DNA of 63,887 bases, counting the filler, from Conidiobolus incongruus B7586 (Eukaryota): assembly GCA_000697335.1 (NCBI GenBank). It is 19 parts of 19 records of this genome, joined end to end, with 100 filler letters (N's around TTAATTAATTAA, not from the genome) between each part and the next. Parts side by side here need not be neighbours in the genome. Positions count along the whole stretch, not along the records: positions 1 to 13,808 come from JNEM01003817.1; positions 13,909 to 18,673 come from JNEM01003819.1; positions 18,774 to 20,825 come from JNEM01003821.1; positions 20,926 to 22,303 come from JNEM01003822.1; positions 22,404 to 24,627 come from JNEM01003823.1; positions 24,728 to 29,157 come from JNEM01003824.1; positions 29,258 to 32,578 come from JNEM01003825.1; positions 32,679 to 34,149 come from JNEM01003826.1; 11 more parts are not named here. One strand, 5' to 3'. Shown one piece after another: positions 13,141 to 46,410 of the stretch; within the stretch, counting starts at the first letter, position 1; the number at the start of each line of letters is the position of its first letter. The position numbers and the translations under genes were made by a program. The notes under the pieces were generated by a model. That model saw only the letters and a list, made by a program, of their open reading frames with translations. It ran no database searches and was not told where the DNA came from.

Positions 13141-13808
13141 TTACTTTGTAATTTAATTAATGGGAATTTTTTGTGATTGAAAAAAATAAACATTTTAATA
13201 TATAATATATAAAATATAAAATATAATATAAAATTAATAATTTCTTTTATCTTTAATATCTTTTTGCTATATTTTTAACAAAGTTCTGATATTTAATAAA
13301 TATTTCTTTTTATTAAAAACTGAAATTTAATATTTTATAAACTAATTAAATTTTTCTATAGAGATTTTTTTCTTATAATCTAGTTATTTAATTGCTTAAA
13401 ACAATTATAATCATATATAGTTATAATCTAAAGAATATACTAGATATGATATTTTTTTCTTATTATTCTTGATTAGAAAAAATTTTATAACTTTAATTTA
13501 TATATTTTACAATTATTATATAAAATAATAAATTTTCTAAAATTATATTAAAGATATTAATTAAAGATAGTTTTATTTATAAAAGTATTATAAAGTTTAT
13601 TAATAATTAATTTTTTTTAAGAATTAAATATAAATACTATATGTTATTATAATCTATAATAATAATTAATATTTATTTATCAAAATAATATTTATTTAAA
13701 ATAATTTATAAAAAAGTTAGTTTAATTTAATATTTTGATTTATATTTTGGTAAAAGATTTTATAAAAAGAATTGAGATTTATTAATTATAATAATTTATT
13801 ATAAAAGC
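13141..13808 (-). mobile_element. Mariner-like element, 3' half (subfamily B1), cut by a gap
   Basis: TA|TTACTTTGTAATTTAATTAATGGGAATTTTTTGTGATTG is the reverse complement of the 3' end of the 16047-17336 copy. Confidence 0.85.
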
Positions 13809-13908
13809 NNNNNNNNNNNNNNNNNNNNNNNNNNNNNNNNNNNNNNNNNNNNTTAATTAATTAANNNNNNNNNNNNNNNNNNNNNNNNNNNNNNNNNNNN
13901 NNNNNNNN
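13809..13908. other. Artificial contig spacer N44-TTAATTAATTAA-N44. It recurs at 18674, 20826, 22304, 24628, 29158, 32579, 34150, 37176, 38404, 39538, 42332, 43781, 45014, 46411, 52007, 53571 and 62748.
   Basis: Identical 100-nt layout 18 times. The palindromic TTAATTAATTAA gives stop codons in all six frames. Confidence 0.97.
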
Positions 13909-15207
13909 TTATAATTATAAATTATTATTGTAAATTATTATTTTAAATAATATTAATATTAAATACCTAAATCCCTTTCTAAAAAAATTCACTTATATAT
14001 TCATTAACTTTATAATAAAAGTAAATCAACTTATAAGATTATTAGAATTATTAGTGCTAGCTAGTCTATTATAGCTATAGTTATTAAAAATTATAGTAAA
14101 GATATATTTAAACCTAAACTTAAATATGCTAGGATTATAGATTAATATGATAAAAAGTAAATTTATAGGTTAGTTAGTACAGGTAAATATAATATTATTA
14201 TAGAAGTATAGAAAGAATTACAAAACTATATAGGAATATTAGTTAGTATTGATACTATTATATATGTTTTATGTTATAATAGATATCACTTATACTTTAA
14301 GAAAAAACACTTTTAACTAAAGAAGTCTTATTATAAAGCTAGGCAAGAATTTAAATATCATTACTAAAATTAAACTAAAATTAATTAGAATAAGGTAATT
14401 TAGTTTAATAAAACAAAAATATACTTTAGTGTATCTAATAGAGAAGTTAGATATTTTAGAAAAAACAAAAAACTACTTTATAATTATTATGTTATTTTAA
14501 CACAAAAATATAATAATGGGTTAATTATAGTTTAGGGATATATATTATCTTTTAGTATAAGGTATGTTTATAAAGTTAATAAGGGAATTAATACTGAGAT
14601 ATATTAAAATATTCTAAATAATGAATTAAAAAAAACTATTAAATAATATAGACTAAATAAGTCAAATGTCATTTTCCAACAAGATAATAACTATTGTTTT
14701 ATTATTATTTTTACTACCAAATAATTTAAAAATAATAAAATAATAGTTATAAAGTGGCTTTATAAATCCCCTAAGCTTAATCCAATTAAATACCTTTGGG
14801 ATTAGTTAAAAAAATAGTTAAAACTTTCCTATCAATAAAAAATTTAAATGAGCTTTAGGAATATATTTAAAAAGCTTAGATTAAAATTAATCTTTCTTAA
14901 TATAAGTAATTAGTTGACTTTTTACCCTATAAACTTAAGGAAGTTAAAAAAGTAAAAGGTAAAAATACTAAGTTTTAATTTTCTTTTTATAACCAAAACA
15001 TACAAATTTATAACTTATCTTAGGTAAAAATTTAAATTTTAATTTATCAATTAATAATTAATATTGTTAGATCAATTATATTTAATTATAAATGAATAAT
15101 ATAAGTTAATTATATATTTTAATTTAAATTAATTTGATTAAGAATTAATAAAATTATTGATTATAATATATATAATCATAATTTTATGACTCATTTTTAC
15201 AGGCTAG
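13909..15207 (+). mobile_element. Tc1-like (DD34E) transposon, mutated transposase plus 3' long IR
   Basis: KVI*FNKTKI (=VIWSDETKI), VIFQQDN, then exactly 34 codons to K (=E) in W..KSPKLNPIKYLWD (=WPxQSPDLNPIEHLWD). Ends TTTTATGACTCATTTTTACAGGCTAG. Confidence 0.9.
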
Positions 15208-15209
15208 TT

Positions 15210-43780: not shown

Positions 43781-43880
43781 NNNNNNNNNNNNNNNNNNNN
43801 NNNNNNNNNNNNNNNNNNNNNNNNTTAATTAATTAANNNNNNNNNNNNNNNNNNNNNNNNNNNNNNNNNNNNNNNNNNNN

Positions 43881-44700
43881 TAACAAAATTAATTATTTTT
43901 TGATTTTTTATATTAATTATTATAATATAAGTGACACTCAAAAATACTTTATTTTCTATATAAAAATTATTAAATTACTATAATAATTATATTTTAAATA
44001 TATATATTAAACTTTTATTCAATATATTGAATAAAATAATGAAAATATATTATATTATTTAAATAAATCTTAAAAATAAGCTAGTGATAGTGATAGCTAA
44101 ATAAAACCAATTAAAATATAATTAAAAGGCAAAATTTTAAAATTAAACCTTTCTATAAATATAATATAAATCCTTATATATAACTTTTTATTAAATTTCA
44201 AATGATATAGTTAAGCTTAACCTAAAAAATTCTTTTAATAAATAAAAATAAAATATTGAGCTTATAGTTAAATATTTATTATTATAAACGATAATTAAAA
44301 TGTATAATATCTTTTTTTAATTTCTAAAGTAAATTAATTAATAATAAATTTTAAATTATTTAGTTCAAATAGTTTTATTTTTAATTGGTTTATCTATATA
44401 ATATAATTTAAGCTATTTTCTTATATCTTTAGTATAATATATATAAAATCAAAGTTATAAAGCATTTTACTTTCAAAATTATTAAAAAAAGTTACCATAT
44501 TTTGAATATTTATTATATTTTAATTTATTTAATTTTAGCTGCTTTAGGACATCAAAATATAATCTAATAAAACATAATTTTGATAAATTTAATAAATTTA
44601 TAAAATATTAGTATTTATTTTATAATAGTATTAAGTTTAATTTGAATATTTTGAAATTATTAAATATATAACAAATTATATAAATAATGAAAGAATATAT
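43881..44700 (+). mobile_element. Highly decayed mariner-like relic
   Basis: Ordered matches to mariner blocks: AGCTAG..ATAGCTAAA, AAATCAAAGTTATAAA, GTTACCATAT, GCTTTAGG. Boundaries are approximate. Confidence 0.45.
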
Positions 44701-45771
44701 TTAAATGCTATATAATTGTTTTTATAAACTTTAATAAAATATTTCATTAAATTCAATTTTGAAAGAAGTTTATTAATATATACCTAAAGTAATAATATAT
44801 ATTAATTCGAATAATAGTTGCAATATATATAACACTGATTTTGTGAATATATTTCTAATATAAAATTTTTATAAAAAGCTCCTATATCTAGAATATTAAT
44901 TTAATACTAATATATATAATTATGATTCTTTTTGAAAGTTAAATAATCGTAATATAGAAATTTAGTAATAATAAATTTTATAAAGAATATTAAATAAAAT
45001 ATTATTTTATAAANNNNNNNNNNNNNNNNNNNNNNNNNNNNNNNNNNNNNNNNNNNNTTAATTAATTAANNNNNNNNNNNNNNNNNNNNNNNNNNNNNNN
45101 NNNNNNNNNNNNNGCAATTATTTAAAGATTAGTGATAAGTTAATAATTAAAATAATACTATATTTTTATATTATTCTATTATAATTATTATAGATATTAA
45201 AAATATACTTGATTTATAAGTAATTTAATTATTTTTAAATTTTATAATACATAATATAGACCCCGTATAATATTCTACCGAATTTTAATTAATTATAATT
45301 ATTTAATAAAAATAAAGCTTATAAAATATAGCAAGATTATTCTAAAATCGAAATTTAAACTTATTTAATAGTTTTTATATTGATAATATTATTCTGAACT
45401 TTCTGTATTAATTAATAAAAATCAAAATAACAAATTTATAATATAATAATTTTATTAATATCTTATAGATAACTTTGATATTATTTTTATCCTTTTTTTT
45501 CTTAAAATTTTTCAAATATTAACATTTTTATAATTGAAATAAAGCTCCTAGTAATTTAATATATATATAAATCCAAAAATAAATATTAAAATATCTTAAT
45601 ATATTTTGAAAATTAATTAGTAATAAGAATAATAATAGGTTAATATAAATCCCTAATTTTTAATAAATATAAGTTTATTAAATTAGCTTATAACTATTTT
45701 TAAATTATTATATTAAAAGATCTTCAGTAAATATTGAGTAAAATCTATTAATTAATATTAATTAACCTATT

Positions 45772-46410
45772 CTAACCTATAAAAATAAGTCATAAAATCA
45801 AAAAAACTAATATTTTTACTTAATAATTCATTAATATTTAATGAAATAAACCTAAATTAAAGAATTAAAATTATATATATATATATTAATAATAAAAATC
45901 GTTAAATAATGATATTTAGTTATTAATTAGCTAAAATATTAATCCTAAAATTTTACTTCAAAATAAGTGATAAATTTGTAGGTATTTGGTAATAAAGAAA
46001 ATTAAAACTTAATATATTTATCTTAAGCTTTTTTAATTTGGTTAAGTTTATAAGATATAAAAACAACTAACTGTTTATACTAAAAAGGGTTAATTTTGTT
46101 TTATATTTCATAAATATATTTTTAAAGCTATTTAAATCATTTATTAAAAAGAAAGTTTTAATAACTTTTTTTAACTAATCCTAAAGATGTTTAATTAGAT
46201 TAAAGTTAAAAATTTAAAAAGATTTCTCTATAACTATTATTTTATTATTTTTAATCTATTTAATGATACCAGCTATATTATAATATAAGGTATTATTCTA
46301 TTAGAAAATATTATTATATTTATTTAACTTTTATTATATAATATTTTTTTAATTTATTATTTAAAATATTTTAATATATTTTAATATTAATTCCCTTATT
46401 AATTTTACAA
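45772..46410 (-). mobile_element. Tc1-like element, 3' end with terminal IR
   Basis: CTAACCTATAAAAATAAGTCATAAAATC is the reverse complement of the Tc1 terminus, followed by the transposase C-terminal remnant. Confidence 0.8.

What the first reader, a model, noticed from the sequence alone, without database searches (positions are those of the whole stretch)
13141..46410. RIP-like, repeat-targeted C->T hypermutation acting on the multicopy transposons, possibly in a lineage where RIP is not established
Seen: independent copies of three unrelated families (Tc1, mariner, Ty3/gypsy) differ from their motif consensus mostly by C->T and G->A. The Tc1 WPPQ codons appear as TGG CTT TAT AAA (14755), TAG CCT CCT TAA (21952), TAG CCT CCT CAA (minus, ~33020) and TAA CCT CCT TAA (39190). 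NPIE becomes NPIK/NLIK, FQQDN becomes F*QDN or L**DN, and LIDSG becomes LINSS. Inside the repeats CA/TG and CG are visibly scarce while CT/AG survive, whereas genes and unique intergenic DNA keep CA/TG. Both C->T and G->A occur within single copies, implying both strands or repeated rounds. Established: this is the CpA->TpA signature of repeat-induced point mutation (RID/DIM-2 dependent in Neurospora), best documented in Pezizomycotina. Inference: the low-GC genes, tiny introns and minimal Zn2Cys6 factor do not look Pezizomycotina-like. If the host is Zoopagomycota/Mucoromycota-like, this would be an ancient or convergent genome-defence system, perhaps using a different methyltransferase or deaminase.
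Basis: partly seen in the sequence, partly recalled or inferred. Interest (0 to 1): 0.9.

Follow-up and report, generated by a model that had tools for sequence, protein, structure and literature searches.

The report
RIP-like transposon hypermutation in Conidiobolus fungus
In this early-diverging fungus (a Conidiobolus), most transposon copies have lost half to two thirds of their C and G bases to C-to-T changes, above all at CpG and CpA, while neighbouring unique DNA is spared; this likely comes from methylation of repeats and resembles the RIP genome defence that a 2025 survey reported only for ascomycetes.

Summary
The host is a Conidiobolus (Entomophthoromycotina; MFS 75% identical to C. 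coronatus). Tc1 and mariner copies decayed independently: 113 of 143 Gln/Trp/Arg-type Tc1 codons are stops, against 6 of 569 codons that need a transversion. Against an intact Tc1 relative, 544 of 952 amino-acid changes need only C>T/G>A, 31 the reverse. Context order is CpG (37/37 lost) > CpA (112/128) > CpT > CpC, so it is neither CpG-only nor Neurospora's CpA-first pattern. A decayed MFS duplicate in the window shows ordinary AT drift (C>T 7x T>A, CpG 2/14 lost); young transposons show 33-88x. Losses are equal on both strands, unclustered, and level off near 65%. Best reading: repeat-directed cytosine methylation converted gradually to T; sex-linked RIP remains possible. No methyltransferase could be searched (no genome held). 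Ty3 identity is by eye only. Index-only RIP was suggested for Zoophthora (2024); a 2025 survey scored C. coronatus 'no RIP' with a test that barely moves in this window. This scan's unchecked notes report similar patterns in Dimargaris and Mucoromycota.

The parts
13910..15215 (+). Tc1-like DNA transposon copy; transposase relic 13963-14856 in one frame with many stops
   Evidence: family profile finds intact Tc1 transposase P0058 at E 1e-43
20926..22303 (+). Tc1-like copy with long imperfect inverted ends (20941-21100 / 22143-22302)
32679..34149 (-). Tc1-like copy; used as bait for genome-wide relatives
38504..39537 (+). Tc1-like copy (cut by scaffold gaps)
39638..40648 (-). Tc1-like copy, older (T>A 0.07), abutting a mariner copy
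42432..43780 (+). Tc1-like copy, second subfamily
45746..46410 (-). Tc1-like 3' fragment
62848..63887 (-).
2844..3535 (+). Old Tc1-like fragment (T>A 0.15), signature fading
16044..17340 (+). mariner-like copy with short imperfect inverted ends; youngest (T>A 0.004, 30% of C/G lost)
22481..23791 (+). mariner-like copy with both ends
40648..41964 (+). mariner-like copy; DDE half 41261-41785, keeps YSPDY
   Evidence: Pfam DDE_3 E 9e-6, Transposase_1 E 1e-3, both below cut-off
35387..36791 (+). mariner-like copy, older
13105..13808 (-). mariner-like 3' half; sharp edge to unique DNA (CA/CT 0.52 inside, 1.37 in 12311-13104)
38..1426 (-). old mariner-like copy
28715..29422 (.). mariner-like 5' ends on both sides of a gap
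31601..32578 (-). old mariner-like copy (T>A 0.12)
43881..44799 (+). old mariner-like copy (T>A 0.15)
37276..38403 (-). third family, copy 1; Ty3-like protease motif by eye only (LINSS at 37362)
   Evidence: no Pfam hit
52107..53300 (-). third family, copy 2 (82% identical to copy 1; 117 of 182 differences are transitions)
15216..16014 (-). single in window but repeat-like signature (CA/CT 0.41, 0 CpG); looks by eye like a Ty3 integrase tail and chromodomain
   Evidence: no database hit
17374..18673 (.). single in window but repeat-like signature (CA/CT 0.31, 1 CpG); unidentified
1574..2525 (+). CONTROL: MFS pseudogene, decayed duplicate of 9435-10805; keeps 17 CpG, no context bias
9435..10805 (+). 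intact MFS transporter gene used to place the host
25865..27490 (-). CAF1/PARN-family ribonuclease gene, unaffected
56609..57286 (-). Zn2Cys6 transcription factor gene, unaffected

Best explanation
Each transposon copy in this Conidiobolus has separately undergone heavy C-to-T mutation on both strands (CpG > CpA > CpT > CpC) that spares genes and unique DNA, likely because a DNMT1/DIM-2-type enzyme methylates repeats densely in all contexts and the marked cytosines are gradually converted to T. Shown: repeat specificity, direction, independence between copies, context order, strand symmetry, lack of clustering, and a plateau near 60-70% loss. The outcome equals RIP (dead, AT-rich copies); membership in RIP is not shown.
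For: Direction: 113/143 Tc1 and 29/52 mariner Gln/Trp/Arg-type codons are stops against 6/569 and 2/182 codons needing a transversion; against intact P0058, 544 of 952 changes need only C>T/G>A, 31 only the reverse. Context, two methods: protein-polarised loss CpG 37/37, CpA 112/128, CpT 50/70, CpC 90/171, controls 2-16%; star-tree model CpG 0.97/0.89, CpA 0.73/0.45, CpT 0.54/0.39, CpC 0.37/0.14 (Tc1/mariner), better than a flat model by 2dLL 121 and 44, and simulated flat data did not give this order. The 3' base matters, the 5' base hardly, as expected for methyltransferase contexts rather than APOBEC-type motifs (recalled). Control: MFS pseudogene C>T 31/116, T>A 6/136, CpG 2/14, CpA 9/44, CpC 14/45; ratio 7, equilibrium GC about 0.22, near the intergenic level. 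Young copies: ratio 33-88. Independence: 60% of transition-site pairs are incompatible (random 62%) against 20% for transversions; copies with both ends have different flanks. Gradual: C and G losses equal in all 17 copies (chi2 8.7, df 17), no neighbour clustering (p 0.06-0.91). Plateau: old copies lost 51-67% where a clock predicts 82-99%. Genome-wide: 270 of 333 variable places on one copy are transitions in unitigs of run X1. Precedent: TE-restricted CG and CHH methylation in Phycomyces and repeat 5mC in Linderina (PMC11258239, passages); Dim2-dependent mitotic C>T in repeats (PMC8016269, passages); PF00145 genes in all entomophthoraleans examined (PMC11105155, passages).
Against: No methylome and no methyltransferase gene was seen: no genome is held. 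Zoopagomycota are described as 5mC-poor overall. The Zymoseptoria mitotic mutator spares CpG, unlike this. Many mild rounds of RIP would also give symmetric, unclustered loss and a plateau near 80% identity. The control is one pseudogene with 14 CpG sites, partly shaped by selection before it died. Estimates for old copies suffer from misalignment, the strand test uses model-derived counts, and run X1 may be the window's own sample.
Confidence: 0.55

Rival explanations
1. True RIP outside Dikarya: duplicated DNA is detected by pairing at the sexual (zygospore) stage and mutated in many mild rounds by a RID-like or DIM-2-like enzyme; CpG loss is added by ordinary methylation, as in Tuber.
For: CpA is the top non-CpG target. 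Loss levels off while the closest copies are 78-88% alike, near the recalled ~80% RIP threshold; 6 of the 7 CpGs in repeats lie in five old copies (4,421 of 22,666 bp; p 3e-4, set chosen after seeing ages). The youngest mariner lost 30% of C/G at T>A 0.004. C. coronatus has 0 repeat pairs of 1 kb or more at 95-100% identity but 555 at 80-95% (PMC12543289 supplement rows; assembly collapse could also do this). Tuber shows CpG plus CpA signatures with RID (PMC4352252 sections 7, 12).
Against: No strand asymmetry even in copies with 28-30% loss, no clustering. A linked MFS duplication 8 kb apart left one copy intact and the other without the signature, though it is old (35% diverged). Masc1/RID homologues were reported only in Pezizomycotina, a few Taphrino- and Agaricomycotina (PMC5751038, passages); the entomophthoralean candidates are 12-14% identical to RID and not called homologues. 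No leakage seen into the first 100 bp of flanks at 8 ends (CA/CT 76/53; mostly old copies).
Confidence: 0.27
2. A repeat-targeted cytosine deaminase (AID/APOBEC-like or other) acts without methylation.
For: All four contexts are raised above the control (11-158x T>A against 7x).
Against: No 5' base preference and no clustering or strand coordination, which deaminases on single-stranded DNA usually show (recalled). CpG-first order is simpler under methylation.
Confidence: 0.07
3. A past or recent episode of genome-wide heterochromatin damage or repair failure, not a standing defence; the plateau reflects the length of the episode.
For: Copies of very different age lost similar fractions (Spearman 0.42, p 0.10).
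Against: Old copies should then show background plus episode and no CpG; they hold most surviving CpGs and a fading CA/CT signal, although two middle-aged copies hold none.
Confidence: 0.06
4. General AT drift on dead sequence, or stops inherited from a few dead master copies, or an assembly artefact.
For: The genome is AT-biased: unique non-coding DNA is 13-20% GC and the pseudogene has C>T 7x T>A; raw transition fractions overlap.
Against: GC-matched unique DNA keeps CpA and CpG; the pseudogene is context-flat; transitions are near-random across the copy tree; TAA, TAG and TGA alternate at one codon; independent unitigs show the same spectrum.
Confidence: 0.05

Closest known systems
Repeat-induced point mutation (RIP) of Neurospora crassa and other Pezizomycotina (RID/DIM-2)
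   Same: Repeat-restricted C:G>T:A, both strands, all families hit, CpA the main non-CpG target, copies dead and AT-rich.
   Different: CpG lost fastest and CpT/CpC strongly hit; no strand bias or clusters; host outside Dikarya; RID, pairing trigger and premeiotic timing not shown.
Dim2-dependent mitotic C>T mutator of Zymoseptoria tritici (PMC8016269, abstract and passages seen)
   Same: Methyltransferase-linked, repeat-restricted C>T without need of sex; 5mC there is CG > CA.
   Different: There over 98% of C>T is at CpA and CpG is spared; here CpG leads.
CpG/TpCpG hypermutation of transposons in Basidiomycota (PMC3318451 abstract; PMC4352252 sections 7, 12) and 'some lower fungi' (Clutterbuck 2017, title only seen in a reference list)
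   Same: Near-total CpG loss in repeats, linked to DNMT1/Masc2-class enzymes, no RID.
   Different: Those signatures are CpG-only or TpCpG; here there is no 5' T preference and non-CpG loss is massive (CpA 45-88%).
Tuber melanosporum mixed CpG + CpA signature (PMC4352252 section 7)
   Same: CpG first, CpA second.
   Different: Tuber is a Pezizomycete with RID/Masc1; this host is Entomophthoromycotina.
Index-based RIP in Zoophthora radicans and other Entomophthorales (PMC11105155, passages and supplement search)
   Same: Same order of fungi, same suggestion of RIP outside Dikarya (24.2% of genome by composite index).
   Different: That rested on dinucleotide indices, listed no value for Conidiobolus in the passages seen, and gave no alignment, direction, context or control; this gives all four.

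Membership tests
RIP (Neurospora type) | Mutation restricted to repeated DNA | tested here: met
   GC-matched windows, pseudogene control, sharp edges
RIP (Neurospora type) | Directional C:G>T:A transitions in large excess | tested here: met
RIP (Neurospora type) | CpA is the preferred target | tested here: not met
   CpG > CpA > CpT > CpC by two methods; CpA leads only among non-CpG contexts
RIP (Neurospora type) | Strand-biased, clustered changes from processive rounds (feature recalled) | tested here: not met
   17 copies symmetric, no autocorrelation; many mild rounds could hide it
RIP (Neurospora type) | Triggered by homology between any duplicates above a length and identity threshold | tested here: inconclusive
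   Plateau and fading in old copies fit; old MFS duplicate untouched; no young non-transposon duplicate in the window
RIP (Neurospora type) | Occurs in the premeiotic sexual stage | not testable with these tools
   needs crosses or zygospore progeny
RIP (Neurospora type) | Requires RID/Masc1 | not testable with these tools
   no genome held; literature reports no clear RID in this lineage
Passive CpG-only 5mC deamination (basidiomycete/vertebrate type) | Excess C>T confined to CpG, with CpA/TpG gained | tested here: not met
   CpA/TpG depleted (o/e 0.70) and lost at 45-88%
Zymoseptoria Dim2 mitotic mutator | C>T almost only at CpA, CpG spared | tested here: not met
   CpG 37/37 lost
Methylation-coupled repeat mutagenesis (general) | 5mC present on the repeats in the mutated contexts | not testable with these tools
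   no methylome; only contig data for the runs
Tc1 transposons | HTH_Tnp_Tc3_2 + DDE_3 transposase of about 340 aa between inverted repeats | tested here: met
   nearest intact relative P0058, 338 aa, both domains above or near cut-off E 1e-20 and 2e-11; inverted ends
mariner transposons | Transposase_1/DDE domain, YSPDL-like motif, short inverted ends | tested here: inconclusive
   Pfam hits below cut-off, YSPDY kept, short inverted ends; no intact relative found
Ty3/gypsy retrotransposons | Protease, RT, RNase H, integrase order; LTRs | tested here: inconclusive
   motifs by eye only; 0 Pfam hits in 15 frames, 0 PDB hits
Conidiobolus (host) | Host genes group with C. coronatus | tested here: met
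   MFS 75% to C. coronatus, 40-46% to Neoconidiobolus, 36% or less to Dikarya; clade support 97 in a quick tree of 32 of the 56 proteins; one gene only

The most novel reading that the evidence does not exclude
Conidiobolus has a standing, homology-sensing repeat mutator that works without RID, so RIP-grade genome defence predates Dikarya or arose more than once, and is missed by current screens in AT-rich genomes; it could be an ancestral DNMT1/DIM-2 pathway from which RID-dependent RIP later specialised.
Probability: 0.3. Interest if true: 0.85.

Novelty: new variant of a known kind. Interest (0 to 1): 0.63.

Why it matters
A 2025 kingdom-wide survey concluded that RIP-like defence is restricted to a few ascomycete classes and scored C. 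coronatus 'no_rip'. Here a congener shows polarised, controlled, alignment-level evidence of repeat-specific hypermutation strong enough to put stops in 79% of reachable codons. The survey's AT-rich tetramers are only 1.01-1.16-fold enriched in this window's repeats (threshold 2), so that test would miss it. Conidiobolus is culturable and forms zygospores (recalled), which makes the open question, whether repeat mutagenesis needs RID and sex, directly testable outside Dikarya. It may also bear on why Conidiobolus genomes stay near 40 Mb while Entomophthora reached 1 Gb.

Tried and rejected
No own genome, so no search for RID, DIM-2, DNMT1, DNMT5 or deaminases. Simple binomial mixture per context could not separate loss from gain and was dropped for the codon-constrained model; one start gave an undefined likelihood and the fit was redone. 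Raw transition fraction rejected as a test. Word-based homologue search with a mariner relic found nothing (weak evidence). Pfam on 3 frames and 12 frames and PDB did not identify the Ty3-like pieces. Automatic inverted-end search for mariner failed in AT-rich DNA; ends were read from a direct print. No RNA holder listed. Runs X5 and X7 laid nothing (no proof of absence), so no between-strain SNP spectrum; reads were laid on one Tc1 copy only, not on mariner or unique DNA. The careful MFS tree did not finish; the quick tree is cited. The protein Atlas gave no answer. Bewick et al. 2019 and Clutterbuck 2017 are not held; either may already cover Conidiobolus. Supplement searches of PMC11105155 for methyltransferase rows found nothing; three large spreadsheets of PMC12543289, including the full k-mer table, could not be read. 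Paper searches for prior alignment-level reports returned none for Conidiobolus; subscription journals are mostly missing.
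Full report
Setting. The window is a scaffold of short contigs joined by 100-base spacers, about 17% GC, with genes at 30-40% GC. No whole genome is held. The intact MFS transporter at 9435-10805 is 75% identical to Conidiobolus coronatus, 40-46% to Neoconidiobolus and 36% or less to Dikarya; in a quick tree of 32 proteins it groups with the two C. coronatus paralogues (support 97). The host is therefore a Conidiobolus, Entomophthoromycotina, on one gene; the species was not determined.

Observation. Self-BLAST shows nine Tc1-like copies, nine mariner-like copies plus a short end, and a two-copy third family. A profile of nine in-frame Tc1 segments finds an intact 338-residue Tc1 transposase, P0058, at E 1e-43. 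The mariner label rests on sub-threshold Pfam hits, a kept YSPDY motif and short inverted ends. The Ty3 label rests on motifs seen by eye; Pfam and PDB gave nothing.

Composition. Repeats (22,666 bp) hold 7 CpG and have CA/TG o/e 0.70, CT/AG 1.27; other non-coding DNA (30,422 bp) holds 137 CpG with 1.02 and 0.92. In four GC-matched bins CA/CT is 0.50-0.55 in repeats and 0.80-1.25 outside; 13 of 88 'unique' windows look repeat-like, most beside scaffold gaps, and were left in the control, which makes the test conservative. CpG-only decay would raise CA/TG, not lower it.

Direction. Raw transition fractions are not decisive (64-78% in closest pairs, 49-57% over all pairs, 58% in the MFS duplicate). 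Polarised tests are. In the six least-diverged Tc1 copies 113 of 143 codons in Gln/Trp/Arg-type columns are stops, against 6 of 569 in Lys/Glu, Tyr and Leu columns; in four mariner copies 29 of 52 against 2 of 182 (columns were classed partly on the stops themselves). Against P0058, 544 of 952 amino-acid differences are reachable by C>T/G>A alone and 31 by the reverse; the commonest are D>N, W>stop, E>K, T>I, R>K, V>I, R>Y.

Independence. Differences fall evenly on the three codon positions, so they arose after insertion. Among six Tc1 copies, 60% of pairs of informative transition sites are incompatible with one tree (random 62%), against 20% for transversions. TAA, TAG and TGA alternate at single codons. 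Unitigs of run X1 laid on one copy number 12,259, and 270 of 333 variable places are transitions, 125 C>T/G>A against 8 C>A/G>T; the family is large and affected genome-wide, though X1 may be the window's own sample.

Context. A star-tree model with a stop-free hidden ancestor gives loss per copy of CpG 0.97/0.89, CpA 0.73/0.45, CpT 0.54/0.39, CpC 0.37/0.14 (Tc1/mariner), C>A 0.02-0.04, T>A 0.014-0.022, T>C 0.012-0.023, ancestral GC 0.31-0.35; it beats a flat model (2dLL 121 and 44, 3 df) and simulated flat data do not give this order; the 5' base has little effect. Codons fixed by P0058 agree: CpG 37/37, CpA 112/128, CpT 50/70, CpC 90/171, controls 2-16% (counts pool copies over 3-25 reference positions per class).

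Control for drift. The MFS pseudogene at 1574-2525, scored at 155 conserved codons, shows C>T 31/116, C>A 8/116, T>A 6/136, with CpG 2/14, CpA 9/44, CpC 14/45, CpT 6/13, and keeps 17 CpG. Its C>T/T>A ratio is 7 and implies an equilibrium GC near 0.22, close to unique intergenic DNA. Young transposon copies have ratios of 33-88 overall and about 158 at CpG, 42-60 at CpA. So AT drift is real here but is a different, weaker, context-flat process. The control is one gene, partly selected before it died.

Dynamics. C and G losses are equal in all 17 copies modelled (chi2 8.7, df 17), including copies with only 28-30% loss, and neighbouring sites are not correlated (p 0.06-0.91). Copies with T>A 0.07-0.15 lost 51-67%, where a clock at the young rate predicts 82-99%. 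Six of the seven CpGs in repeats lie in five old copies (set chosen after seeing ages, and two middle-aged copies have none). The process acts early and then stops. No leakage is seen in the first 100 bp outside eight ends.

Mechanism. A 3'-base-defined order headed by CpG, symmetric and unclustered, is what dense repeat methylation in all contexts followed by gradual conversion would give (inference). Repeat-restricted CG and CHH methylation is known in Phycomyces, and repeat 5mC in Linderina (PMC11258239, passages); a Dim2-dependent mitotic mutator is known in Zymoseptoria, though it spares CpG (PMC8016269, passages); all entomophthoraleans examined carry PF00145 genes, none called a RID homologue (PMC11105155, passages); RID/Masc1 was reported only in Dikarya (PMC5751038, passages and supplement search). 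I give this 0.55. Pairing-triggered sexual RIP in many mild rounds fits the plateau and the CpA rank and gets 0.27. Deaminase, one-off episode and drift or artefact share the rest.

Prior knowledge. Stajich et al. 2024 reported index-based RIP in Zoophthora radicans (24.2%) and low values in three relatives, with caveats. Badet and Croll 2025 (abstract, sections 8-9, passages, supplement rows) found RIP-like signatures only in ascomycetes and scored C. coronatus no_rip, with tetramer enrichments of 0.87-1.03 in repeats; the same eight tetramers are enriched 1.01-1.16-fold in this window's repeats, so the test is blind here. Basidiomycete signatures are CpG or TpCpG (PMC3318451 abstract; PMC4352252 abstract and sections 7, 12). 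Clutterbuck 2017 names 'some lower fungi' for CG loss; I saw only its title. Reviews PMC13297926 and PMC7862722 (passages) and PMC12387763 (passages) do not mention RIP in Conidiobolus. Seven searches found no alignment-level report for this genus. Unchecked notes of this scan describe like patterns in Dimargaris and two Mucoromycota; they are leads, not support.

Verdict. Real, strong, repeat-specific C>T hypermutation in a Zoopagomycota-grade fungus; RIP-like in effect, not shown to be RIP. New variant of a known kind; interest 0.63.

Noticed in passing
window, 18 gaps, e.g. 13809-13908: Every gap is 44 N + a 12-base six-frame-stop spacer + 44 N, so contigs are joined by an artificial linker; adjacency and distance across gaps are not reliable, and most gaps fall in or beside repeats.
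   Followed up: partly
window 1574-2525: MFS pseudogene about 8 kb upstream of the intact paralogue, same strand, 64% identical, frameshifted; no repeat signature.
   Followed up: yes
window 12237-12308: tRNA-Gly(TCC) keeps its CpGs although tRNA genes are highly multicopy in C. coronatus (1,294 reported); short or transcribed repeats seem spared.
   Followed up: no
window 34250-35386, 36792-37175, 45114-45745, 51481-52006: Stretches single in the window but with repeat-like CA/CT (0.43-0.73); probably further repeat families with copies elsewhere.
   Followed up: partly
window 39638-41964: A mariner copy starts exactly where a Tc1 copy ends (40648), suggesting nested insertion and a transposon cluster.
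   Followed up: no
window 25600-27690 (-): CAF1/PARN-family gene with a short intron near 25820-25870 and an acidic tail exon.
   Followed up: no
window 47550-48990 (-), 30834-31400 (+), 19448-20086 (+): Intron-split alpha/beta-hydrolase-like gene, a hydrolase fragment, and a 212-aa ORF without Pfam hit (membrane segment plus soluble part).
   Followed up: partly
P0058 cluster: Intact Tc1 transposases close to the window's dead family occur in 14 unnamed records on 1.2-kb contigs, i.e. multicopy and alive in some other organism; P0058 has N where most relatives have the first Q of FQQDN.
   Followed up: no
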